Origin: Escherichia phage VEc33 | Reading direction: 5' to 3' (one strand) | Sequence record: NC_048818.1 | DNA length: 64,000 nt | Shown: positions 1,683 to 38,978 of the stretch, piece by piece | Layout of the letters: every line of letters begins with the position of its first letter | How positions within the stretch are numbered: the first letter of the stretch is position 1 | The notes under the pieces: model-generated | Told to the model about the DNA's origin: nothing | The model's input: only the letters and a program-made list of their open reading frames with translations | Databases searched by the model: none | Translations under genes and position numbers: made by a program

Positions 1683-3353
1683 TTACGCAAAGAATTTACC
1701 GTTTTTAAAGTCAATCAAAGTGCGCTGACCGTTTGCATAGGTAATTAAATGCGTTTGCGTCCAGCTTGACGCGCCAACGTTGTAACCCATATCCAGACTA
1801 CCAGCAACGCCAGCGGTATATACGCCGCCATAAATGCTGGCGGTATGGGTATGCCCCGTGTTTAACTTGCCCAATTTTTTAAATTGTTTAGGATTGCCAC
1901 GACTGCCGTTAATGCCATTGTGACCGTGTACGCCGCATTCAATGCCTGCAATCTTGAAAGATTGATCAGTGGTCAGGAAAATGGCGTTAAATTCACAACC
2001 TGCAACCTTGCGCAACGCATAATCTAGCACGTTAAACGTTTCGTCGTGTTCACCGATTGCCGCGTAAATTGCAGCATTCAGGCGGTGATATAACTCGGCG
2101 TTTGCTGGATCGTCTTTGATGTTAGCATTACGATCATCAAGCCAACGGGATAGCGCCAAATCGTGATTAGATTCAACAATGATTGTTTGACTAAAATCAC
2201 GTTCCATTGATTCCAGCACGCGCCCCGTATCGATAAGATCATCCAGAACTTTATCACGTCCGGCGGCGTATTGTTTAGCTAGGAATACACCGGATGCGCG
2301 GTTATGATGATTGCGGGATGTAAAATCGTGAACGTCATGCACAAACTGATATTTTGGTTTAAGAATATCTACTAGCCCATAAGTATCACCATGCCCCCAA
2401 GATGCGGCGGCGCACTCCTCATCTAATTTTTCGGCGTGAATATCGCCATACTGCAAGCCTAAAACATGCCCCGATGTCTCATAGCATCCGGCAGGAGTAG
2501 CGCAAACGTTCAGATCATAAAACACCCCGCTTTCGTCCATTGTTTCAAGCTGGCGAACAAAAAATTCCCCGTCCTCGTCGAACTCGACAATCAGCGCACC
2601 GAAGTTATGCAGCGCCTCGGCCTTTTGTCCTGCTTTCTGCTGAATGTAGTTTTTTAACGTTGCCGTTCCGGTTGAATACATACGGCGCACTACTTCACCT
2701 TTTAAAGCTGGCACGCTTTCAGCGGTAATTTTAGCGTGACCAATTGCCAGCCCCTCAATATTTAAAGCCGTTGCAGTCTCGGCGAATCCAGAAAGCGGAT
2801 AATCTGCGGTTGGCAAAACATTAATTTCAGCCATGAAAGCAAAGCGGCGGTTATTTAAAAACACGTTTTTGCTGCAAATATATTTATCGAACGCGGAATC
2901 ATATTTGATTCCATCCGCACCTTCCCCATTTTGAAAACCGTTTTTATTATAAATATACTTAGAAACAAGCAAATCAGCACCGATATATTTAGCAAATTGC
3001 TCCAGTGAGGCTAAAAAGTTTTTATGCGGGAAAGTATTATTCTGAATCGATGTAATAATAAAGCGTTTACCTTGTTTTACTTCCCATTGCTCCACCGTAC
3101 TAGAAACAATCCCAGCCGCTTCTGGGCGCTCATCATTTTTAATGGCTTTTGCTACTTTTGCCGCTTTTGGTTTCGCTGGTTTATTTGCTTCCAACCAATC
3201 ACAAATGGCGGTGGAGTGTTTAGTAGTATCGTATACCGCTTTCGAAATATCGTCACAAACTTCCAATTTAGTGGCGCGCAGGCGTTTACCGTAGAAGTTA
3301 AAGTCAGCGGCCATTTTCAGGATAACGGTTTGTTTTTCTGCGGAAATAATCAT
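1683..3353 (-). CDS. A1: A1-like pre-early protein, calcineurin-like metallophosphatase/nuclease fold (556 aa)
   Basis: 556 aa, the length I recall for T5 A1; metallophosphoesterase-type motifs (GDIHAEKLDE, GNHD-like, GHTHT); RBS before the ATG. Confidence 0.6.
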   Translation of the reverse strand: MIISAEKQTVILKMAADFNFYGKRLRATKLEVCDDISKAVYDTTKHSTAICDWLEANKPAKPKAAKVAKAIKNDERPEAAGIVSSTVEQWEVKQGKRFIITSIQNNTFPHKNFLASLEQFAKYIGADLLVSKYIYNKNGFQNGEGADGIKYDSAFDKYICSKNVFLNNRRFAFMAEINVLPTADYPLSGFAETATALNIEGLAIGHAKITAESVPALKGEVVRRMYSTGTATLKNYIQQKAGQKAEALHNFGALIVEFDEDGEFFVRQLETMDESGVFYDLNVCATPAGCYETSGHVLGLQYGDIHAEKLDEECAAASWGHGDTYGLVDILKPKYQFVHDVHDFTSRNHHNRASGVFLAKQYAAGRDKVLDDLIDTGRVLESMERDFSQTIIVESNHDLALSRWLDDRNANIKDDPANAELYHRLNAAIYAAIGEHDETFNVLDYALRKVAGCEFNAIFLTTDQSFKIAGIECGVHGHNGINGSRGNPKQFKKLGKLNTGHTHTASIYGGVYTAGVAGSLDMGYNVGASSWTQTHLITYANGQRTLIDFKNGKFFA

Positions 3354-3443: not shown

Positions 3444-3641
3444 TTAATTTAAAGGCACTAGGCTAGAACTAACACCACAAGCAACGGCAGCGATAAAACA
3501 AAGCAGACCTAAACGTTTTGCTAATTTAGATTTACGTTTAAAATAATATGAATCTAAATCATTTTGAAAATAAGCGAATAATAGGGAGGCCGCCATAATA
3601 AATAAGCCTAGAATTAAAGATTCAGTAGGGAAGAAAACCAT
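3444..3641 (-). CDS. small hydrophobic membrane protein (65 aa)
   Basis: Two hydrophobic segments; intact ORF between terminator-like hairpins. Confidence 0.35.
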   Translation of the reverse strand: MVFFPTESLILGLFIMAASLLFAYFQNDLDSYYFKRKSKLAKRLGLLCFIAAVACGVSSSLVPLN

Positions 3642-3731: not shown

Positions 3732-4139
3732 TTATTCGCCTGCGGCCTGTTTTACTTCATCGGCAACGCCTAACAATTGCGCTACTGCGTCCAGCGTTTC
3801 AAGTTTTGCACTTTCAAGGCTTGCCAAATCATCGGCGTCTTTGATAATGCCGGAATCAATAGCATGTTTAGCGATAACGCGCACATAGTGAGCTTTACGC
3901 ACAGAGCTACCGCCGCCAACTTTACGCGGCTTATCGCTTTTTTGATAGGCTTTTGCACTGGTCAATTTTGAGCGAACGGATACGGGGGAGGCCGCGCCTA
4001 CTGCTTTTGCAATCTCTTTCAGGCCGTCGCTATTTGCAAAATCTAAACCGTTTTCGTTGATTAACTGCTGGTACATGGTAACAGCTTTCTGAGTGTTTTC
4101 TTCATTCCATGCGAATTTTGCGGTTTTTGCGTTAGTCAT
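3732..4139 (-). CDS. pre-early protein, possible A2-like DNA-binding protein (135 aa)
   Basis: Position immediately upstream (in transcript order) of the A1-like gene; basic central region; hairpin terminator downstream at about 3690-3720. Confidence 0.4.
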   Translation of the reverse strand: MTNAKTAKFAWNEENTQKAVTMYQQLINENGLDFANSDGLKEIAKAVGAASPVSVRSKLTSAKAYQKSDKPRKVGGGSSVRKAHYVRVIAKHAIDSGIIKDADDLASLESAKLETLDAVAQLLGVADEVKQAAGE

Positions 4140-4242
4140 GGTAAAAACTCCTATTAGTTTAATTTAAGGGATTAGATTAGATTAACTTAATGTTAATCGT
4201 TATATCCCCCTGAAATAAGAGGGATATAAAGTTAGCACTAAA

Positions 4243-4494
4243 TTATAAAACAGCTTCCCATTTTTCGTTGCGTTGAACAACCTTTACAACATCGCCGGAT
4301 TTAACGCGAACGCTAAAAACGGGCTTGCCGTTGTTACTGCGTTCATTTTCAGCGTATACCGCGTCGATTGTATCGAACGGCATAAGCGCCGCACCTTTAA
4401 TACGTTCGGCTTTTCCGGTTAATTCGTCCATTTTAGTAACGAAAGGAATAAAAACGGATTGACCAATTTTAGGCGCGGTAATAACGTTTTGCAT
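4243..4494 (-). CDS. hypothetical pre-early protein (83 aa)
   Basis: Intact ORF with RBS; hairpin at about 4205-4235 downstream. Confidence 0.4.
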   Translation of the reverse strand: MQNVITAPKIGQSVFIPFVTKMDELTGKAERIKGAALMPFDTIDAVYAENERSNNGKPVFSVRVKSGDVVKVVQRNEKWEAVL

Positions 4495-5371
4495 AATATA
4501 AACTCCTAGTTATTTGGGGATTGTTCCGCATTACCTGCTAGAAAGTAGCAGGTAATAAGTAACAATCCGCTCGCCAGTTTAATCAATTTAAAGAACTCCA
4601 CGTAGGCCGCTATATCCCGTTAGGGGGCGGGATGCATTATGGTAAGCACCGACCGTCAAATTTTATCAAGTTATCGCTCTTTTCGAACTGGGTACATCTT
4701 AAAACCTATCGGCTAGGCTGTCAAACAATTTTTTGAGATTTTTTATGATTTTCCTTCAGGTCAATCATAATGTTTCGCCAGATCATTTCTAAACCTTGCT
4801 GGCGACCTTGCAAATATTGCTTGAATCGCCATTTTACAGAATTTTGCGCTACTGTCAACAAGTTTTTTGTTTTGCTATCTAGTGCCTTGCTAGGCTTGCC
4901 AGTGATCAAAAGCGTTTGTTTCATATCGTCGATTCCTTATAATGAATAAGTTTACCGCCGATAGGCTTTAAGATATACCCAATTTTTAAAGAGCGCGGCG
5001 GTAAACTTCCCGCCGTGTAGTTCGTCATTGCCGCCCTACGAGATACATAATAGGGGATTCCCAAAAATGGCGCAACCTTATTTTTGTAAAGAAACGTAAA
5101 GACACGATTCACCGGACGGCGTGCGGCGACGGCCTAAAATTAAAAGAAACGGGCGCGCGAATACCACAAAACAGAACAAATAGGCAAGTAATTTTTTCAT
5201 TTATATTTGCTTTGCCCTACTTGACAAAATCTAAAAAGCTCGTGGCAGTGATAAACGGCGTGCCCCCTTATGATGGGATGGCTAAAAACTTCATCGCGTT
5301 CTAGGGCGTTTTAGGCGCATTCTAGCCTTGTTGATAACTTATCCCCAAAAGCAAAAATGAAATTTTCCTAG

Positions 5372-5797
5372 TTATCCACTTGACTTTTATTTTCCAGTGG
5401 ATAACTACTTATTTTATGAAATAAATTAATTGACTTTTATTTGTTAGTATGCATCGGAAAGATAGCAGACTAATAATTGCTAGAATGATAATCATGCTGG
5501 TGGATTGTAACGACCTGAATTATTAGCAGACTATTAATCACGGAAAATCTCATTAGCTAACTAACTATTTCCTGAGTTATAATATACATATAAATTAATG
5601 AGAAATAATAACTATAATAAATAATAACCGATAGGAATAATAACTATAAGAAACTATCGGCCTAAGTGAGAACCACTATCATTTAAGTTATCCACAAGTT
5701 TATTAACAGCACTTTTTGATTTGACACGATAGGCGGCGATATAAGCACTTATCCACAGACTTATCCACATGTTATCCTACTGTATAAATATACAAGA
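5372..5797. promoter_or_regulatory. divergent control region with at least five DnaA-box matches (TTATCCACA/T) and a LexA-box-like palindrome (CTGTATAAATATACAA at 5780-5795)
   Basis: TTATCCACT at 5372-5380 and reverse at 5396-5404; TTATCCACA at 5688-5696, 5749-5757, 5761-5769; CTGT-N8-ACAA adjacent. Confidence 0.6.
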
Positions 5798-6062
5798 CAA
5801 AAAGGTAGTGTTAACAACTGCAATCAATTTTAAGCGGCCTAAATCGCTTTCTAACGAGCAAAACGCTGTAGGGTAATACTAAAGTAAAGCCTCAACGCGT
5901 CGCCCTGGTGGCTTCGCCGTGTTTTGCTCTTTATTGCACCGCTGCGCGGTTAGCATAAAACTAGGCGTTAGGCAAGGAAAATAAAAAGGTAAAATAATAT
6001 TTGCCCCTAGAAAGAAAATACCTTTATCATTCACTCACCGATTAACGAGGGAGGCCGAACAA

Positions 6063-7073
6063 ATGAGGCTTTATAAACCAGATAACGCAACCGTCTTAAA
6101 AGGTGCGCTGCGTAACCTGCTGGACGGTAGCAAGTCAACCAGCATTAAACATTTTATTAACAAGGCTGAAACTATTCATCAAAACTTTTTTGATGACTAT
6201 GACGCCTATGATATGGATGGTTTTTTGCCATTATACAAGTATGGGGCAACGCTTGTTTTATATAATCGGGATTGCCATATCTTTACAGGCAGGGGAGCGG
6301 GGCCGGATACCGATTTTATTATTGCGCAGGGTAATAATATTGTTGCGTATCATAGCAATTCAGGCCGTCAATCATTTAATATAAATGGTTTTGAGCTTAT
6401 TGGGCTTGATCTGATAAACGGACTTTCTAGTATTGAGGGATTTTTAGATGTTATCTGGAAGTATTTACCAGCTGGATGGCATAAGCCGGATAACGACGGA
6501 TCTCAATATACTGGTATAATGGCTTTTGATGGCGACGGTAATTTTTTGTTACCCCGGGAGCTATACCCATATATTTATGATGGGGATATAGAAAGCGCTG
6601 GTTTTTCTTTCTGGAAAGATGAAGATCAGATTATTGACAGCGTAGAAAACCATGCTGTAAATTCTAACACTCAAAGCGTTAAAACTCAAACTACTGAAAA
6701 CAAAGGAAAAAACACCATGACCAAGATCGCTAATATTGTTGCCGCTAATAAATCCGCTGTTGTAAACGCTGCAAAACTGGAAGCGGGTAAAATTGCACTG
6801 ACTCAAATTACGAAAGTAGCGGCTAAAAAAGCACCGTTTATGATTAAAGGTTATATTGATACACCCATCGGTCGAGTAGTGATTGCCAACCTGCTGAGCG
6901 TAGCGGTTGACCAGTACGCCCCAAGTAACCAAAAGGCGAAAGCGGTGGCAGGTGCAGCTATGGAAGCGGCTATGTTAGAAATGGTACAAAGTTTTAATAT
7001 CGCTGAAATGATTGATGAAATGGTGAAAGGTATTGATATTTCTACTTTTACCACTAGCACCGAAAGCGAGTAA
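6063..7073 (+). CDS. hypothetical protein (336 aa), first gene of the rightward block
   Basis: Long ORF with GAGG RBS; Ala/Lys-rich C-terminal half; no recognisable catalytic motif. Confidence 0.55.
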   Translation: MRLYKPDNATVLKGALRNLLDGSKSTSIKHFINKAETIHQNFFDDYDAYDMDGFLPLYKYGATLVLYNRDCHIFTGRGAGPDTDFIIAQGNNIVAYHSNSGRQSFNINGFELIGLDLINGLSSIEGFLDVIWKYLPAGWHKPDNDGSQYTGIMAFDGDGNFLLPRELYPYIYDGDIESAGFSFWKDEDQIIDSVENHAVNSNTQSVKTQTTENKGKNTMTKIANIVAANKSAVVNAAKLEAGKIALTQITKVAAKKAPFMIKGYIDTPIGRVVIANLLSVAVDQYAPSNQKAKAVAGAAMEAAMLEMVQSFNIAEMIDEMVKGIDISTFTTSTESE

Positions 7074-7140
7074 TAACTAATTTAGCGGGGATTGTTTCCC
7101 CGCTTTATTATTCCCTTGTTAATTAATAGGAGGCTAATAA

Positions 7141-7635
7141 ATGGCTGCGGAAAAATATGGCTTCTCACTGGGAGAAGTGAGCACAGCTAAACACGATATG
7201 ATCATTTTGGTTGATTGTCATACGGGTTACTGCGGGGAAGGGAATACCGAGGAATATTTTGTTCCTGCTGGTACGGATCTGGACGCTTTAGCTCACGAAA
7301 TGGCTATTGATAATGCTTCTCGTTTTGGTAGCGATGGCTATGAAGACGAAGATACTGGCGAATGGTATGAAAATGAAAACGTATATGCAAGCCTTTATCA
7401 TTATCAATTAAGTAAATCCGGCACATATGTAAACGGCGGCGATCCTATTAATTCCGTCATGAAATTAATTATTAAATATGGTGGCGTCGAGATAATTGAT
7501 AACAAAGCGGTAATATATGCAAACCGATTAAAACAGCTTGTTTATATTCCTGATAGTACCCGATGGGAGGAATACGCTGTTTTGCATGACGAATTGAAAC
7601 GATGTTTCAATATTGAATCCTTACAAGTAGTCTAA
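7141..7635 (+). CDS. hypothetical protein (164 aa)
   Basis: ORF with AGGAGG RBS; followed by a hairpin terminator. Confidence 0.55.
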   Translation: MAAEKYGFSLGEVSTAKHDMIILVDCHTGYCGEGNTEEYFVPAGTDLDALAHEMAIDNASRFGSDGYEDEDTGEWYENENVYASLYHYQLSKSGTYVNGGDPINSVMKLIIKYGGVEIIDNKAVIYANRLKQLVYIPDSTRWEEYAVLHDELKRCFNIESLQVV

Positions 7636-7650
7636 TGTAAAGTTTTGTAA

Positions 7651-7678
7651 AGGCCGCCTCTTATGGTGGCCTTTTTTG
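7651..7678 (+). terminator. Rho-independent terminator
   Basis: GC hairpin AAAGGCCGCC...GGTGGCCTTTTTTGTT with T-run. Confidence 0.6.
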
Positions 7679-7741
7679 TTATAATGCCTTTACACCGTTT
7701 GAGGACGGTTGAAAATTTCCCAAAAAAATTGGAGGCTTAAA

Positions 7742-7972
7742 ATGGTTGCTTATTCTTCTGCTAGTCATCTGTTCACCGCTCAAGGCTGGGTGTCTAATCG
7801 CGTCATCATTCATGAAATGGTGCAGGAGTTCGGCATTGCTAAAACGTATAATACCATTCAGGAACTATATAACGCTGATAAAATCGATCAGCAAACGGCT
7901 GGCTTTTTGCTGGATACCCTGAAAGCGGAACACTGTACCAAAAAACAAGCGGCAAAAATTGTTTTAATGTAA
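7742..7972 (+). CDS. hypothetical small protein (76 aa from the RBS-supported ATG)
   Basis: GGAGG RBS 7 nt upstream of ATG 7742; the six-frame ORF begins further upstream at 7709. Confidence 0.45.
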   Translation: MVAYSSASHLFTAQGWVSNRVIIHEMVQEFGIAKTYNTIQELYNADKIDQQTAGFLLDTLKAEHCTKKQAAKIVLM

Positions 7973-8021
7973 TTAATAACGGGGCGTTACTTTCGCCCCA
8001 CTAACTAGGGGAGTAGTACAA

Positions 8022-8171
8022 ATGGTTATTTTTCGGGCTATTTTAGCTGGTATCTTGGGCGCCATTTTATCGTTGTTTGCAATAGCTTTCGGTGTTCACG
8101 CCGTTATTATCGGCGCGGGTATCGCCGCATTTTCTTATCTGCTGGGCTGCATGACTGGTAAAGGAGAATAA
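8022..8171 (+). CDS. small hydrophobic peptide (49 aa), absent from the ORF track
   Basis: ATG after GGGGAG RBS; translation MVIFRAILAGILGAILSLFAIAFGVHAVIIGAGIAAFSYLLGCMTGKGE; stop overlaps the RBS of the next gene. Confidence 0.4.
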   Translation: MVIFRAILAGILGAILSLFAIAFGVHAVIIGAGIAAFSYLLGCMTGKGE

Positions 8172-8173
8172 AA

Positions 8174-8386
8174 ATGATCCGCAACGTTTCTCTTGCTCGT
8201 TCGAAAGGCTTTAAGCTGGTGGATGTTAACACGTTCGAGCGGGAAGATTGTAAAATCGAATATGTAGCACGTAACAAAAATGCCTTTCGTGTTACCGAGA
8301 AAAAATTTGACAAGCGCGGCAACGTGATCGCTGAAACGGTTAAACACTTTGCCACCTTTTACGCTGCGTTTCGGGGAGTGTTATAA
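8174..8386 (+). CDS. hypothetical protein (70 aa)
   Basis: AAGGAG RBS; translationally coupled to neighbours. Confidence 0.5.
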   Translation: MIRNVSLARSKGFKLVDVNTFEREDCKIEYVARNKNAFRVTEKKFDKRGNVIAETVKHFATFYAAFRGVL

Positions 8387-8387
8387 A

Positions 8388-8732
8388 ATGGTTATTTATG
8401 AAGGCAATCGCTTTGTTGCTAATTGCCGTCCGGCATTATTAGCAAACTATTTAAATCAGCTTTCCCCAGCTTATAAGGGCGTTATTAATATTTATGAGGG
8501 CAAGGCGCATTATAAAATTAATGCGGTCGTTGCCCGTGAACTAGCGTTTCAATTTTTGACCTTTGCATCTTGTGACGTTCAGGTTATGGGTGAAGCATTA
8601 ATTGCAGAAAATGAAGATGATTTTATTAATATTTTCCGCAAGGTATGCACTGAGCGCCTAGTAATGAAAGGCGCGTATATTCAATCAACCGCTGACAGTA
8701 TTGAAACAGCGTTTCGAAAGGTGGCGCAATGA
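8388..8732 (+). CDS. hypothetical protein (114 aa from internal ATG with RBS)
   Basis: GGAG RBS before ATG 8388; the six-frame ORF begins at 8349. Confidence 0.5.
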   Translation: MVIYEGNRFVANCRPALLANYLNQLSPAYKGVINIYEGKAHYKINAVVARELAFQFLTFASCDVQVMGEALIAENEDDFINIFRKVCTERLVMKGAYIQSTADSIETAFRKVAQ

Positions 8733-8832
8733 GATTATATATTTTCGTTGGTAATGTTGAGGCAGCTAATGATTCCGCTGGTGGCGATAACGTTCGCCGC
8801 TATTGGCAAAAATATATTTACTAGGAGTTATT

Positions 8833-9027
8833 ATGAGCAATAAAATTGTTGTGACCAAAACTACTACGATGGTTGATGTTTTTTACGTGCCCGATACGCC
8901 GGAAAACCGACAAGCGGTCGAGCGTGGCGAATATGATAAAGTGATTTATGATCACGATGGTTATTATCAACATTTGGTAGATTCCTACGGGGAGGAGGAA
9001 AAAATCACGCACCGACTACCCGACTAA
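8833..9027 (+). CDS. hypothetical small protein (64 aa)
   Basis: AGGAG RBS before ATG 8833. Confidence 0.4.
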   Translation: MSNKIVVTKTTTMVDVFYVPDTPENRQAVERGEYDKVIYDHDGYYQHLVDSYGEEEKITHRLPD

Positions 9028-9283
9028 TAATCACGGGGCGCAACTATCAGGAAGTGCCCCCAATTTTCAAATGAGAATGATTATCATTTGACCGCGCCCG
9101 CGATAGTTAGCCTGCTAATGGTTAGGGTGTTACGTGTCGCCTTGTGTGATCGTTAGCGTGCTAACTAATTTTCAAGCCTCCTCCAATTTTGCCCTTGTTT
9201 TAGTATCCCCACCAAAATTAAACGCGTCAGAATGCGATCTAGGACGTTTTAGGCCTATATTAGAATTATTCACTGCATAGGAA

Positions 9284-9303
9284 TACTGTATAAATATACA
9301 GTA
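9284..9303. promoter_or_regulatory. LexA (SOS) box-like palindrome TACTGTATAAATATACAGTA
   Basis: Perfect CTGT-N8-ACAG with AT-rich spacer. Confidence 0.5.
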
Positions 9304-9313
9304 GAATAACCTG

Positions 9314-9394
9314 GGGATAAGTCTGTGGATAACGCTTCAAAATGGCTAGGATTCTGTCAAGTCAAATCGTGCTGTTGATAAGTCTGTGGATAAC
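9314..9394. promoter_or_regulatory. DnaA-box pair in reverse orientation (TGTGGATAA at 9324-9332 and 9386-9394), each preceded by GATAAGTC
   Basis: Reverse complements of TTATCCACA; inverted copy of the 5741-5769 module. Confidence 0.55.
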
Positions 9395-9627
9395 TTAAAT
9401 AGCAGTGTTTCTCACTTCCGTTTTTAAATGCGAATCATTATCATTCGCATTTCACTAGCTAACCGATAATCACTCCACGTTTTAAATGAGAATCATTTCA
9501 CTTCTTGAATAGTTCTCATTCCCTTTCTTAAATGCAAATCATTATCATTCGCATTTCACTTTTTAAATGAGATTGATTCTCATTATCATTCGCATTCAGG
9601 CGAGCAGGGCAATTGCCCTGCGCTTTT

Positions 9628-10228
9628 GTGCAAATCCGACATTTGCCCCCATGGGTTACGCGTGGGCATGTATGTGCAAATCCGACAATTTTTGGTAGTG
9701 TGCAAATCCGACCCGAAAAATTTTTATAGTGTGCAAATCCGACAACGAATTTTCCCAAAAACTCCAGCAATCACGAACTGCGTTCGAATCCTGTGGAATT
9801 AGCTAGAGTATGTGCAAATCCGACATGTGTTGAGCTATGCGAATCCGACAAGATTTTTGTGACTTCGATTGGAGGGTGTGTGATTGTATAAGTTTGAGGA
9901 GAAGATGAGAGAGCGAGAGAAATTTTGGGACTAGAAGGATGTGGGCGCAGGATTGGTGCGGAGCACCTGATTTGCGTGGATTTTGGGGAAGAGTTGAGAT
10001 AATTTGGGAAGATTTGAGATAGGCGCAGAAAAAGTAAAATTTTATTAGCAAAATGGCGCAAAATAGCTTGACAAGTGAAAATTCTTGTGGCTCTAAAAAC
10101 TCAGGCAATCATGGGCCTTCGGCCCGAAATAATGCTGCTATTTTCAGGAGAGTAAGAGTTCCTAAAAACTTAGGCGTTTGTGCAAATCCGACCATAAATT
10201 TCTAGAATATCAATGTGCAAATCCGACA
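9628..10228. repeat. about 8 dispersed direct repeats of GTGCAAATCCGACA
   Basis: Copies at 9628, 9674, 9699, 9731, 9812, 9837 (variant), 10180, 10215; irregular spacing. Confidence 0.6.
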
Positions 10229-10254
10229 GTAATTTCTAGAAATGTGTTTTCGAA

Positions 10255-10355
10255 AAATGTCTCCTAGAAATAACCGCCCTCCCTATAACCGCCCTATATT
10301 AACCGCCTAGTATATGCTCCTAGAAACTTAGGAGAACCGCCCTAGAAAGAGGGAG
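10255..10355. repeat. short tandem-like repeats of AACCGCCCT / CCTAGAAA
   Basis: AACCGCC(C)T four times and CTAGAAA four times within 100 bp. Confidence 0.45.
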
Positions 10356-10680
10356 TATTTCGTGAGAACTCTGGAGTTTCTAGGAAAGTGTTGTGTCATC
10401 CTAGCAGATGAGCGGCAACAGGTGTATCATCTTGAACACAGATATTGCCTTTAAATATTATAAGGTAAATTAAAAGTAAAGTAGCCCCCATTACATGTGT
10501 GCTTACTCGTGGGGCGCGTGATTAATTACGTAAGTCCTCGACTGTCATACCCCTGTTGCTCGGTCGCAAAGAGTTAACGAAGTCTCGTGTAATAATCATC
10601 GCCCCTAGAGTTCAAAACAAAAGTTGTTTTTAATCTATGTGATTATTATAACATGCAGATGGATGAACGTCAAGTAACGT

Positions 10681-11391
10681 TTATTCTTTTACTTTGGCTT
10701 TGAGTTTGATACCAAGAGATGCGAAGTAGATATAAGTTGCTAAATAGGACATAGCAGATCCTGTCTCTTCGTAAGAGAGAGTTCCTTTCACGTACCTCTT
10801 ATATTCTGGCTCTAGATTAATAATCGTAGTACTTGGCAATCCTAGCGAATTACATAATGATTTGAATGTTTCTTTATCTCTATGAATCGCATAGTGAATG
10901 GCTTTTTCTGTAGGAGTTAATTCTAGATCTTTGGTAATGGCTACGTGCAAACTCGCTATAGTCATGCCAATTCCACGATACGTTTCCTCCTTATTAAGAG
11001 AAGGTTTCTGTTTCTCTAACTCAGGAAGATGTGCAAATTCTCCCTTCTTTCTCGGAATCTTATCATCACTAAGTAATGCTGTTAAGAAATCTGTTTCTTC
11101 ATAGGCTGGGAGCACTTCATCAATCAATACTAGAATAGAACTAGCATTGATACCTTTCGCACTAGGATCTAAAGATTTTAATGCTTTATTAGTTTCAACG
11201 TAGGAGCCTGCTAATACTACCTTAGAGCTATTCCTATCATATTTAATTTTATTAGCTTCCCAACGTGCAGGACGATAATCAGATAGAAACATTACCGCAT
11301 ATTTTTGTTCATCTGTTAGCTCGGAGAAACATTTCTGGTTTGATTCTTTTGCTAGCGCAATAAGGTGCTTTAGTTTTTCTGCTTTATTCAT
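10681..11391 (-). CDS. hypothetical protein (236 aa)
   Basis: Long ORF; first of the AT-rich leftward early block. Confidence 0.55.
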   Translation of the reverse strand: MNKAEKLKHLIALAKESNQKCFSELTDEQKYAVMFLSDYRPARWEANKIKYDRNSSKVVLAGSYVETNKALKSLDPSAKGINASSILVLIDEVLPAYEETDFLTALLSDDKIPRKKGEFAHLPELEKQKPSLNKEETYRGIGMTIASLHVAITKDLELTPTEKAIHYAIHRDKETFKSLCNSLGLPSTTIINLEPEYKRYVKGTLSYEETGSAMSYLATYIYFASLGIKLKAKVKE

Positions 11392-38006: not shown

Positions 38007-38978
38007 ATGACAGAAGAAGTAGCTAAGAGTCCTGAAACCGTCGCTAGCGTAGCAGCAGAACTGCATCGTCACGAGGAATCAGATAAGAAAAAGTGGGAGA
38101 AGGTCAGAGCCTACGAAGAAAAACATCGTGTTCACGATGAAGAAGATGATGATGAACATTGTCATAAATATGGAAAACATAAAATGCAAGAACCAGTAAA
38201 CGTATTCACTAGTGGCTTCCCTGGCCTACTGGGTGGTTACCCAGCAAACGCAAGTGCTTTCGGTGGTGAAGGTATGGGACTATTCGGAGCTATCCTAATC
38301 GGTGCTCTATTAACAGGCGGATTTGGTGGTTTTGGTGGTTTTGGCCGTGGTGCTGGCGTTGCCGCTGAAGGGACTGCTGTGGACGCGATCCTTTCTAACC
38401 AAGATACTGCAAGTATTCTAGCTGCAATCAATACTACTCGTACAGAAGCTAACCAGGGCACTGGGGCTGTTCTAAGCGCAGTAAACGGTGTGGGAGCTGC
38501 TCAAGCTGCTAGCACTCAGCAAGTTCTGACTACTATCTACGGTACAGGTGCTAATCTGTCAAACCAGATCTGTGCTGAAACTCGTAACGTTATTCAGGGT
38601 CAGTTCGATCTTTCTCGTCAGATGGATCAATCTTTCGCTGCTAACCAGATCGCACGTGCTCAAGATAAATTTGACTCTGCTCAGATTGCTTTCCAGCAGT
38701 CTATTCAGACCAATAACCAGTTTGCCGCTGTTCAGGCTCAGATGTGTGCTAACCAGAATGCTATCGAACGTCAGCTTGCCGAATGTTGCTGTGAGCTTCA
38801 GACTGCAATCGCTGGTGTAACTACTGCACGTATCCAGGACGAACTGAATGAATGCCGTCTGCGTGAAGCAATCGCTGCAGGTAGCGGTGCTAACGGTCAG
38901 GTAATTAATCAAATCGCTGTAAGTCTTGGTGCTATCACTCAGACTCTGGCTGGTCTGCAGGCTAAACTGCCGGCTTAA
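38007..38978 (+). CDS. Gly-zipper membrane protein with acidic His-rich N-terminus and Ala/Gln-rich C-terminal domain (about 323 aa from the RBS-supported ATG)
   Basis: AGGAGG RBS before ATG 38007; hydrophobic GLFGAILIGALLTGGFGGFGGFG segment; CCCE and other Cys near the C-terminus; no recognisable enzymatic motif. Confidence 0.55.
   Translation: MTEEVAKSPETVASVAAELHRHEESDKKKWEKVRAYEEKHRVHDEEDDDEHCHKYGKHKMQEPVNVFTSGFPGLLGGYPANASAFGGEGMGLFGAILIGALLTGGFGGFGGFGRGAGVAAEGTAVDAILSNQDTASILAAINTTRTEANQGTGAVLSAVNGVGAAQAASTQQVLTTIYGTGANLSNQICAETRNVIQGQFDLSRQMDQSFAANQIARAQDKFDSAQIAFQQSIQTNNQFAAVQAQMCANQNAIERQLAECCCELQTAIAGVTTARIQDELNECRLREAIAAGSGANGQVINQIAVSLGAITQTLAGLQAKLPA

What the first reader, a model, noticed from the sequence alone, without database searches (positions are those of the whole stretch)
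5372..9394. Inverted DnaA-box plus LexA-box modules flanking the rightward gene block
At 5741-5797 the sequence reads TTATCCACAGACTTATCCACA ... TACTGTATAAATATACAAG; at 9284-9335 the reverse complement of nearly the same module occurs (TACTGTATAAATATACAGTA followed by GGATAAGTCTGTGGATAA). Two perfect DnaA boxes and an SOS-box-like CTGT-N8-ACAG palindrome are thus present as an inverted pair about 3.5 kb apart, bracketing the 6063-9027 block, with further DnaA boxes at 5372-5404, 5688-5696 and 9386-9394. As far as I recall, repeats and DnaA boxes have been noted around the T5 injection-stop region; the paired LexA-like boxes and the inverted arrangement are what I would test.
Basis: seen in the sequence. 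Interest (0 to 1): 0.6.

Follow-up and report, generated by a model that had tools for sequence, protein, structure and literature searches.

The report
LexA-type operators in T5 injection-stop repeats
The two inverted repeats with DnaA boxes are a published feature of phage T5's first-injected DNA, but the palindrome inside each repeat is a near-perfect binding site for the host SOS repressor LexA, conserved across the T5 family and apparently never recognised as such, which gives a testable lead on how T5 pauses its DNA injection.

Summary
The window is a T5-like phage (Tequintavirus), and 5372-9394 lies in its left terminal repeat, the first-step-transfer DNA. Two arms (5664-5797 and 9284-9417) form an inverted repeat around the rightward pre-early genes. 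Each arm holds two pairs of DnaA boxes and a CTGTAT-N4-ATACAG palindrome. The inverted repeat and its eight DnaA boxes are already published (IRC-spacer-IRD / IRD'-spacer-IRC'; Heusterspreute 1987, Wang 2005, Davison 2020). The palindrome ("palD") has been described only as a palindrome. The right copy, TACTGTATAAATATACAGTA, is one mismatch from the idealised LexA consensus and scores above every classical E. coli SOS box I compared it with. The left copy in this phage is degraded (CAG to CAA) but intact in T5 and 20 of 24 relatives. LexA-type palindromes beside perfect DnaA boxes recur in Klebsiella, Serratia, Vibrio and Aeromonas T5-like phages and in metagenomic relatives, only in the pre-early region, although the surrounding sequence no longer aligns. 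A published T5 deletion removes the whole left arm and the phage is viable, so the pairing is not essential. Best reading: host LexA and DnaA docking sites on entering DNA. Binding is untested, and phage protein A2 remains a rival binder.

The parts
5329..5404 (.). Third cluster of four DnaA-like boxes, each an 8/9 match: 5329-5337 (-) TTATCAACA, 5339-5347 (+) TTATCCCCA, 5372-5380 (+) and 5396-5404 (-) TTATCCACT. The last two form an inverted pair.
   Evidence: search with up to one mismatch. One search shows the inverted pair is present in only some relatives (L001, L007, L011, L020, L025) and absent from T5.
5664..5797 (+). Left arm of the inverted repeat, equivalent to T5 IRC-spacer-IRD. 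Order of elements: AAGTGAGAACCACT..ATTTAAG, outer DnaA pair, spacer with TTGACA, inner DnaA pair, 10 bp, palindrome.
   Evidence: alignment of 24 left and 24 right arms. Named in Davison 2020.
5688..5708 (+). Left outer DnaA-box pair: TTATCCACA agt TTATTAACA.
5749..5769 (+). Left inner DnaA-box pair: TTATCCACA gac TTATCCACA, both perfect. A degenerate third box, TTATCCTAC (5772-5780), overlaps the start of the palindrome.
5778..5797 (.). Left LexA-type palindrome, degraded in this phage: TACTGTATAAATATACAAGA (CAG changed to CAA).
   Evidence: 3 mismatches to the consensus. PWM 17.5 bits, against 22.3 for the intact left copy in most relatives. The final G is lost in 4 of 24 left copies.
5787..5814 (-). 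Leftward sigma-70 promoter-like site, TTAACA-16-TATATT, whose -10 hexamer lies inside the left palindrome.
   Evidence: 10 of 12 matches. The -35 region is replaced in T5, L003, L026 and L028, so the site is not universally conserved.
5827..5889 (+). Left inner flank with weaker inverted homology to 9193-9257 (..GGCCTAAAtCGC..TTCTAACG..GGGTAATACTAAAG..).
   Evidence: RNA folding gives no strong structure signal (z = -1.8).
6001..6030 (+). Promoter-like site TTGCCC-18-TATCAT just upstream of the first gene of the block. It corresponds in position to the promoter annotated in T5 at 6411-6489.
6063..9027 (+). Rightward pre-early gene block, the equivalent of T5.011-T5.017. The first gene belongs to DUF7566.
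   Evidence: The T5 equivalents are dispensable.
9193..9257 (-). Right inner flank with weaker inverted homology to 5827-5889.
   Evidence: RNA folding z = -0.3.
9284..9303 (.). Right LexA-type operator, TACTGTATAAATATACAGTA. This is probably the 'palD' palindrome of the T5 literature.
   Evidence: 1 mismatch to TACTG(TA)5CAGTA, with 0.00 expected by chance. PWM 25.0 bits, above all 27 reference SOS boxes; the highest score in 30 shuffles of the window was 17.8. CTG and CAG are kept in 24 of 24 right copies.
9312..9332 (-). Right inner DnaA-box pair. On the - strand it reads TTATCCACA gac TTATCCCCA.
9373..9393 (-). Right outer DnaA-box pair. On the - strand it reads TTATCCACA gac TTATCAACA.
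9284..9417 (-). Right arm of the inverted repeat, equivalent to T5 IRD'-spacer-IRC'. By homology it lies inside the region annotated as the injection stop signal in T5.
   Evidence: Davison 2020.

Best explanation
The feature is the known pair of inverted repeats in the first-step-transfer DNA of T5-like phages. Each arm is a docking module for two host DNA-binding proteins. It has two head-to-tail pairs of DnaA boxes, 61 bp apart start to start, all pointing toward a 16-bp palindrome, CTGTAT-N4-ATACAG. By sequence, that palindrome is a top-affinity operator for the host SOS repressor LexA.

Shown here: the anatomy, the match to LexA specificity, the restriction of both motif types to the pre-early non-coding DNA, and their joint persistence across Demerecviridae where the flanking sequence no longer aligns.

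Inferred: when this DNA enters the cell, a LexA dimer and DnaA oligomers load onto it. The right arm is the last DNA to enter before the injection pause. The host nucleoprotein complex on it helps to hold or organise the DNA at the stop. Because LexA destroys itself when RecA is activated, the host-DNA breakdown driven by phage protein A1 would loosen the complex and so make the hold sensitive to progress of the takeover. The left arm is an accessory duplicate.

The role is modulatory rather than essential.
For: Identity of the locus:
- The region is about 92% identical to Tequintavirus genomes and syntenic with the T5 left terminal repeat, whose annotation places the injection stop signal over the right arm.
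- Davison 2020 describes the same inverted repeats and eight DnaA boxes in 25 phages.

LexA match:
- The right copy has 1 mismatch to the 20-mer consensus, with 0.00 expected.
- It scores 25.0 bits with a heterology-like index of 1.0, better than all 27 reference SOS boxes. Shuffles of the 64 kb window reach at most 17.8 bits.

Conservation in 24 distinct close relatives:
- CTG is kept in 48 of 48 copies, CA in 48 of 48, and the final G in 44 of 48.
- The tolerated variants (ATCCAG, CTGTGT, GTACAG) keep CTG...CAG.
- The asymmetric centre flips between AAAT and ATTT with no intermediates, as expected if a symmetric dimer reads only the arms.

Distant relatives:
- Klebsiella Kpn02, Serratia Kamaji, Vibrio D418 and Cody, Aeromonas AhSzq-1, and loci L090-L096, L100 and L101 carry sites of 18-25 bits within about 150 bp of perfect TTATCCACA boxes. 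The sites bracket the same divergent gene block.
- Whole-genome scans: in D418 (114 kb), all 3 LexA-type sites and all 5 perfect DnaA boxes fall within 3.9 kb. In AhSzq-1, both LexA-type sites and 6 of 10 perfect DnaA boxes fall within about 2 kb.
- All these hosts are Gammaproteobacteria, which share the CTGT-N8-ACAG LexA motif (established knowledge).
Against: - No binding data exist, and none can be produced with these tools.
- The left copy is naturally degraded in this window and in 3 relatives.
- The whole left arm can be deleted from T5 with only a small-plaque phenotype.
- Davison reports lineages that have only the right arm.
- A Thalassavirus-like group (L097-L099) keeps only half-palindromes.
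- The palindrome has no consistent promoter context across the family, so classical SOS repression is not evident.
- A2, an essential phage DNA-binding protein, has an invariant HTH-like segment across the family and could read the same palindrome.
- From memory, T5 plates on recA cloning strains. If so, LexA cleavage cannot be obligatory.
Confidence: 0.5

Rival explanations
1. The palindrome is the operator of a phage protein, most plausibly the essential DNA-binding protein A2, alone or with A1. Its likeness to a LexA box would then be coincidence, or deliberate competition with LexA. A2 bound there would act in second-step transfer or in the shut-off of pre-early transcription.
For: - A2 is present in every lineage that has the palindrome, and it keeps an invariant HTH-like stretch (S51, V55, R56, K58, L59) at only 38-43% overall identity.
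- The single-sequence model shows an N-terminal three-helix HTH-like bundle.
- The literature says A2 binds DNA and is needed for second-step transfer by an unknown mechanism.
- The composite of a DnaA box plus the palindrome is essentially confined to T5-like DNA: 14 hits in 596 Gb of bacterial genomes, at least one of them (L054) a T5-like fragment.
Against: - The site matches LexA specificity beyond the core. It has the flanking TA/CA and an AT-rich centre, and its variants fall at positions where LexA tolerates change.
- A near-consensus site will bind LexA whatever else binds it.
- A2 shows no LexA-like winged helix and has no significant structural match (weak model).
- The injection-stop region holds another family-wide palindrome, ATGCGAAT..ATTCGCAT, which is an equally good candidate for A2.
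Confidence: 0.22
2. Each palindrome is a classical SOS operator over a promoter inside the module. LexA, with DnaA on the adjacent boxes, represses a pre-early transcript until the SOS response is induced. This would tune pre-early expression to the state of the host's DNA.
For: - The left palindrome contains the -10 of a leftward promoter-like site, TTAACA-16-TATATT, which is the usual position of LexA boxes.
- In each arm an inward-reading TTATCC-16-TATAAA/TATATT arrangement can be drawn (read directly from the sequence).
- E. coli uvrB is a precedent for a promoter region with both LexA and DnaA sites (abstract of PMC6015884).
Against: - The -35 of the leftward site is replaced in T5 and three other relatives.
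- The inward candidates have poor -35 hexamers, and no equivalent exists in the Vibrio or Aeromonas phages.
- The three experimentally characterised pre-early promoters lie elsewhere.
- The inner flanks have no Rfam family and no RNA-structure signal.
Confidence: 0.15
3. The palindrome acts as DNA structure or as a cleavage or recombination site rather than as a protein operator. It could be a cruciform or hairpin, or the restriction-like site that Davison proposed A1/A2 cut to release the held DNA. Alternatively the arms are relics of a mobile element's terminal inverted repeats or of an origin-like element.
For: - It is a perfect 6-bp-arm palindrome at the end of the high-identity part of each arm.
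- The two-state flip of its centre is what hairpin-mediated template switching would produce.
- Davison lists PalD among candidate cleavage sites.
- The cargo between the arms varies in length between phages.
Against: - Single-arm substitutions are never compensated on the other arm, so base pairing is not under selection.
- The stem is short and AT-rich.
- Davison's model places cleavage to the right of the stop, whereas the palindrome lies to its left.
- The block encodes no transposase.
- The literature places the replication origins mid-genome.
Confidence: 0.08

Closest known systems
T5 IRC-spacer-IRD and IRD'-spacer-IRC' inverted repeats with eight DnaA boxes (Heusterspreute 1987; Wang 2005; Davison 2015 and bioRxiv 10.1101/866236)
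   Same: It is the same locus, with the same inverted arrangement around the second pre-early operon. DnaA boxes occur in pairs 3 bp apart, and the right arm lies next to the injection stop. This window is simply another member.
   Different: In every text I could search, the palindrome next to IRD/IRD' is treated only as 'palD', a possible restriction-type site. LexA and SOS are never mentioned. I also find that the homology continues inward past the palindrome, and that the design reaches Vibrio, Aeromonas and metagenomic relatives.
Gammaproteobacterial SOS boxes (LexA operators such as those of dinD, umuDC, sulA, recN and the colicin genes)
   Same: It has the same 20-bp TACTG(TA)5CAGTA design. 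The right copy scores above all the reference sites.
   Different: It lies in a strictly virulent phage rather than a host or temperate-phage gene. It is not tied to an identifiable regulated promoter. It is always coupled to oriented DnaA-box arrays, and it is present as inverted copies 3.5 kb apart.
LexA operators of temperate phages and plasmids (for example GIL01 promoter P1)
   Same: A mobile element uses the host LexA as a sensor. For GIL01, the abstract of PMC4551915 describes LexA binding SOS boxes in a phage promoter.
   Different: Those sites control the lysis-lysogeny decision or toxin promoters. T5-like phages have no lysogeny, and the sites sit in the non-coding DNA of the injection-stop region.
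E. coli uvrB promoter region and oriC-type DnaA-box arrays
   Same: uvrB combines LexA and DnaA sites in one control region (PMC6015884 abstract). oriC shows closely spaced, oriented DnaA boxes.
   Different: There is no adjacent regulated repair gene. No AT-rich 13-mer unwinding element was identified. T5 replication origins are reported mid-genome.

Membership tests
T5-type first-step-transfer inverted repeats (IRC-spacer-IRD / IRD'-spacer-IRC') | Located in the terminal repeat of a T5-like genome, flanking the operon that diverges from A2-A1. | tested here: met
   About 92% identity to Tequintavirus genomes, and synteny with NC_005859 (dmp, A1, A2, T5.011-017).
T5-type first-step-transfer inverted repeats (IRC-spacer-IRD / IRD'-spacer-IRC') | Two arms in inverted orientation, each with two pairs of DnaA or DnaA-like boxes 3 bp apart at fixed spacing. 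| tested here: met
   Pairs at 5688/5700, 5749/5761, 9312/9324 and 9373/9385. The perfect boxes of the two pairs within an arm lie 61 bp apart start to start (5688 and 5749; 9324 and 9385), and the same spacing holds in Kamaji and Kpn02.
T5-type first-step-transfer inverted repeats (IRC-spacer-IRD / IRD'-spacer-IRC') | The right arm lies at the injection stop, that is, at the DNA shear point after first-step transfer. | not testable with these tools
   Supported only by homology to the injection-stop feature annotated in T5 at 9140-10149.
LexA operator (SOS box, CTGT-N8-ACAG type) | A 16-bp CTGT-N8-ACAG core within a TACTG(TA)5CAGTA-like 20-mer. | tested here: met
   The right copy (9284-9303) has 1 mismatch. 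The left copy (5778-5797) does NOT meet the core pattern in this window (it ends ACAA), but does in T5 and in 20 of 24 relatives.
LexA operator (SOS box, CTGT-N8-ACAG type) | A score within the range of experimentally verified sites. | tested here: met
   Right copy 25.0 bits and left copy 17.5 bits, against 13.2-23.7 bits for 27 reference sites.
LexA operator (SOS box, CTGT-N8-ACAG type) | Overlaps or adjoins the promoter of a gene that LexA represses. | tested here: inconclusive
   The left copy overlaps a promoter-like site that is not conserved in T5. The right copy has none. The known pre-early promoters lie elsewhere.
LexA operator (SOS box, CTGT-N8-ACAG type) | LexA binds the site, and its function changes on RecA-dependent LexA cleavage. 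| not testable with these tools
   This needs EMSA, footprinting or ChIP, and infections of lexA and recA mutant hosts.
DnaA-box cluster | Multiple 9-mers matching TTATCCACA / TTWTNCACA, enriched beyond chance. | tested here: met
   5 perfect boxes against 0.62 expected, all within the arms. 12 of the 33 matches with up to one mismatch lie in 6% of the window.
DnaA-dependent replication origin | DnaA boxes next to an AT-rich unwinding element and serving replication. | tested here: not met
   I saw no 13-mer-type unwinding element on reading the sequence. There are no replication genes nearby. The literature places the origins mid-genome and notes that the replication genes are not present during first-step transfer.
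Transposon terminal inverted repeats | Inverted ends flanking a transposase gene. | tested here: not met
   Pfam and PHROGs find no transposase or recombinase domain in the proteins of the block.

The most novel reading that the evidence does not exclude
The LexA operator and the oriented DnaA arrays form an SOS-gated latch for two-step injection. Host LexA and DnaA clamp the last-entered DNA at the stop. A1-driven destruction of the host chromosome activates RecA, LexA cleaves itself within minutes (a time scale similar to the 3-5 minute pause), and the loosened complex lets A2 restart transfer. The virulent phage would thus use the host's own damage sensor as a timer reporting that takeover has succeeded.
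Probability: 0.1. Interest if true: 0.9.

Novelty: new variant of a known kind. Interest (0 to 1): 0.58.

Why it matters
How T5 stops after injecting 8% of its genome, and then restarts, has been open for more than fifty years. The only current molecular proposal invokes host DnaA on these boxes. Recognising that the conserved palindrome beside them is a consensus LexA operator adds a second, well-understood and experimentally tractable host protein to the picture. LexA's self-cleavage is triggered by exactly the kind of DNA damage that T5 inflicts on its host. The idea can be tested directly with existing lexA and recA alleles, purified proteins and the T5 engineering methods already published. 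It would also be an unusual case of a strictly virulent phage family maintaining SOS operators. If LexA binding proves irrelevant, the result still narrows the list of candidate functional elements in the injection-stop region.

Tried and rejected
- **Rfam scan of 4400-10800:** no match near any family threshold.
- **RNA folding of both inner flanks:** no convincing structure, z = -1.8 and -0.3. I did not pursue an sRNA or leader reading.
- **Host-switch test:** I wanted A1-encoding phages of hosts with a different LexA motif. The alphaproteobacterial phages RHEph10 and RHEph02 carry A1 inside replication modules with no T5-like pre-early layout, so the test does not apply. Vibrio phage HNL01 likewise lacks the layout and the motifs.
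- **Composite motif in bacterial genomes:** 14 hits in 596 Gb, close to my rough estimate of chance (about 7), and at least one (L054) is a mis-binned T5-like fragment. This neither supports nor excludes a host-only function.
- **Fur-box reading of the injection-stop palindromes:** only 13-15 of 19 matches, and the window total (24) is no higher than in shuffles (18.3, maximum 28). Dropped.
- **A2 analysis:** no Pfam domain, no PDB sequence relative, and a single-sequence model of moderate confidence with no significant fold match. It cannot settle the rival.
- **A conserved promoter over the palindrome:** not conserved.
- **Literature:** no paper linking LexA or SOS to T5-like phages, none containing the literal palindrome sequence, and none citing Heusterspreute together with LexA. 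Davison 2015, Wang 2005 and Heusterspreute 1987 were not readable here, so an earlier mention cannot be excluded.
- **Host-factor screens and a recent SOS/defence preprint:** no information on T5 in lexA, dnaA or recA backgrounds.

Full report
**What the window is.** Megablast of 5200-9700 finds 446 phage records, the best about 92% identical. All are T5-like phages (Tequintavirus and relatives) of Escherichia and Salmonella. The gene order matches the left terminal repeat of T5 (NC_005859): dmp, A1 and A2 are leftward, and a block equivalent to T5.011-T5.017 is rightward. The T5 record annotates the region just right of that block as the injection stop signal. The finding therefore lies in first-step-transfer DNA, the 8% of the genome that enters the cell first.

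**Checking the observation.** The quoted strings are at the stated places, and the repeat finder reports them as inverted repeats: 5749-5794 with 9287-9332 at 89%, and 5635-5726 with 9355-9446 at 73%. All five perfect TTATCCACA in the 64 kb window lie in these arms (0.62 expected; no shuffle reached five). Twelve of the 33 matches with up to one mismatch fall in 5329-9393. The LexA 20-mer consensus with up to three mismatches hits only 9284-9303 (one mismatch) and 5778-5797 (three mismatches), with none expected. Several details need correcting. The right inner pair is one perfect and one 8/9 box. Only the right palindrome is a true CTGT-N8-ACAG. One coordinate is off by one. The boxes at 5372-5404 are 8/9 matches.

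**What is already known.** Davison's preprint 'Phage T5 two-step injection' describes exactly these arms as IRC-spacer-IRD and IRD'-spacer-IRC'. It reports eight DnaA or DnaA-like boxes in pairs 3 bp apart, conserved in 25 T5-like phages, and proposes that membrane-bound DnaA stops the entering DNA. The DnaA boxes go back to Heusterspreute 1987, and the repeat nomenclature to Wang 2005, both as cited there. That text contains no occurrence of 'LexA' or 'SOS'. The palindromes, including PalD, which by position is this one, are mentioned only as possible restriction-type cleavage sites. Searches for LexA together with T5-like, Tequintavirus, Demerecviridae or Heusterspreute, and for the literal sequence, found nothing relevant. 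Three older key papers could not be read.

**Anatomy.** I aligned the left arms and the reverse-complemented right arms of 24 distinct relatives. The arm reads: AAGTGAGAAaCACT..ATTTAAG, an outer DnaA pair, a spacer containing TTGAyTTGACA, an inner DnaA pair, GGTTATyCTA, then CTGTATAwwTATACAG. All boxes in an arm point toward the palindrome. A degenerate third box (TTATCCTAC) overlaps the palindrome's first bases. High-identity homology between the left and right arms stops at the far edge of the palindrome. After about 30 unrelated bases, weaker homology resumes for about 65 bp (..CCTAAAACG..TTCTAACG..GGG.ATACTAAAG..), and the same holds in a Serratia phage. The palindrome is thus the gene-proximal end of the strongly conserved part of each arm.

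**The palindrome as a LexA site.** The right copy scores 25.0 bits, above every reference site (13.2-23.7). The intact left copy found in most relatives scores 22.3, and this window's left copy 17.5. Thirty shuffles of the window reach at most 17.8. Across the 48 aligned copies, CTG is kept in 48 of 48, CA in 48 of 48 and the final G in 44 of 48. The four losses are all left copies, including this window's. The few variants (ATCCAG, CTGTGT, GTACAG, CACAG) keep CTG...CAG. The asymmetric centre exists in only two states, AAAT and ATTT, which are reverse complements of each other. That is the pattern expected for a site read symmetrically through its arms. Uncompensated single-arm changes argue against selection for a hairpin.

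**Family-wide persistence.** I used A1 and A2 as anchors to fetch distant Demerecviridae. Sites of 18-25 bits lie next to perfect TTATCCACA boxes, and bracket the gene block divergent from A2-A1, in:
- Klebsiella phage Kpn02
- Serratia phage Kamaji
- Vibrio phages D418 and Cody
- Aeromonas phage AhSzq-1
- Further loci, down to metagenomic viruses whose A2 is 33-35% identical

In the Vibrio and Aeromonas phages the box arrangement differs and the sequence between motifs cannot be aligned. Whole-genome scans make the localisation explicit. In D418 (114 kb), all three LexA-type sites and all five perfect DnaA boxes lie within 3.9 kb. In AhSzq-1, both LexA-type sites and six of ten perfect boxes lie within about 2 kb. 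One Thalassavirus-like group (L097-L099) has only half-palindromes, so the element can decay.

**Is the pair needed?** A 2026 preprint built T5 ΔLΔR, which lacks hegG through 017. I mapped its deletion primers onto NC_005859, and the deleted interval is 5390-9160. This removes the entire left arm (palindrome at 6211-6230) and spares the right arm (9409-9540). The phage is viable with smaller plaques. Davison also notes lineages that have only the right arm. The inverted pairing is therefore accessory. The right arm has not been tested.

**Mechanism.** A near-consensus operator will bind LexA in any gammaproteobacterial host. That follows from established LexA biochemistry but is not shown here. 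I therefore read the arms as docking modules for host LexA and DnaA on the entering DNA. The right arm is part of whatever holds or organises the DNA at the pause. LexA self-cleavage, provoked by A1-driven host DNA breakdown, offers a way to couple release or transcription to takeover. These steps are inferred. Several facts argue for a modulatory rather than obligatory role: the left arm is dispensable, some lineages have lost the palindrome, and, from memory, T5 plates on recA strains.

**Rivals.**
- *Phage protein A2.* This is the main rival. A2 is essential, binds DNA and keeps an invariant HTH-like segment across the family. A single-sequence model shows a three-helix HTH-like bundle with no significant PDB match and no LexA-like winged helix. 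That neither supports nor excludes A2 as the binder. The injection-stop region also holds another family-wide palindrome, ATGCGAAT..ATTCGCAT, which could equally be A2's site.
- *A classical SOS-repressed promoter.* This is suggested by the leftward TTAACA-16-TATATT site over the left palindrome. However, that -35 is replaced in T5, nothing equivalent exists in distant phages, and the mapped pre-early promoters lie elsewhere.
- *Structural, cleavage-site, transposon-end or origin readings.* These have little support.

**Verdict.** The inverted DnaA-box repeats are already known. The identification of the conserved palindrome as a consensus LexA operator, and its co-conservation with DnaA boxes across Demerecviridae, appears to be new and is directly testable.

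Noticed in passing
window 9426-9452, 9530-9556 (related copies 9067-9091 and 9565-9596); L036 3766-3788: The injection-stop palindromes AAATGCGAATCATTATCATTCGCATTT share the half-sites ATGCGAAT..ATTCGCAT with Aeromonas phage AhSzq-1. This is a third motif conserved across distant T5-like phages. Its binder is unknown, and it is a plausible candidate site for A2. Its resemblance to a Fur box is weak (13-15 of 19) and not above chance for the window as a whole.
   Followed up: partly
window 9629-10234: Seven copies of TGCAAATCCGACA at irregular spacing. These are probably the DRD direct repeats described for the T5 injection-stop region.
   Followed up: no
window 5296-5332, 9234-9270, 5833-5860; L035 ~8905-8938; L037 ~3600-3631; L033 ~7715-7747; L096 ~8670-8701; L098 ~4220-4250: A recurrent motif of the form ..TAGAATCGC.TACAG.GCGTTTTAGG.. 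flanks the palindromes. In several distant phages it directly precedes an extra LexA-type or half-LexA site that has no DnaA boxes. Its function is unknown.
   Followed up: partly
window 5372-5404: An inverted pair of 8/9 DnaA-like boxes (AGTTATCCACT ... AGTGGATAACT) surrounds TTGACTTTTATTTTCC. It is identical in some relatives (L001, L007, L011, L020) and absent from T5 and others.
   Followed up: partly
palindrome centres: window 5786-5789 and 9292-9295, and all relatives: The four central bases occur only as AAAT or ATTT, which are reverse complements, with no intermediates (right copies 16 versus 8). This suggests inversion of the centre by template switching at the palindrome rather than stepwise mutation.
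   Followed up: partly
window 38227-38246: TACTGGGTGGTTACCCAGCA scores 17.1 bits on the LexA matrix. It has a GC-rich centre, lies outside the pre-early region, and is at the level of the best shuffled sequences, so it is probably chance.
   Followed up: no
L054 (RZZU01000077.1, 3,015 bp, labelled a Clostridia MAG): This contig carries both T5-type arms in inverted orientation about 2.3 kb apart. It is almost certainly a T5-like phage fragment mis-binned into a Clostridia genome.
   Followed up: partly
window 3732-4139 (-), A2: A2 has no Pfam domain. It shows a family-invariant HTH-like segment (..IAK.VGA.S..SVRSKL..), a glycine-rich linker (RKVGGGSS) and a helical C-terminal domain in a single-sequence AlphaFold model (pLDDT 76). 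No PDB fold match is significant.
   Followed up: partly
window 1683-3353 (-), A1: A1 is 100% identical to that of Escherichia phage T5_ev219 (LR597655.1). A1 homologues also occur in non-T5-like phages of Rhizobium, Caulobacter and Flavobacterium, inside replication modules and without any first-step-transfer layout.
   Followed up: no
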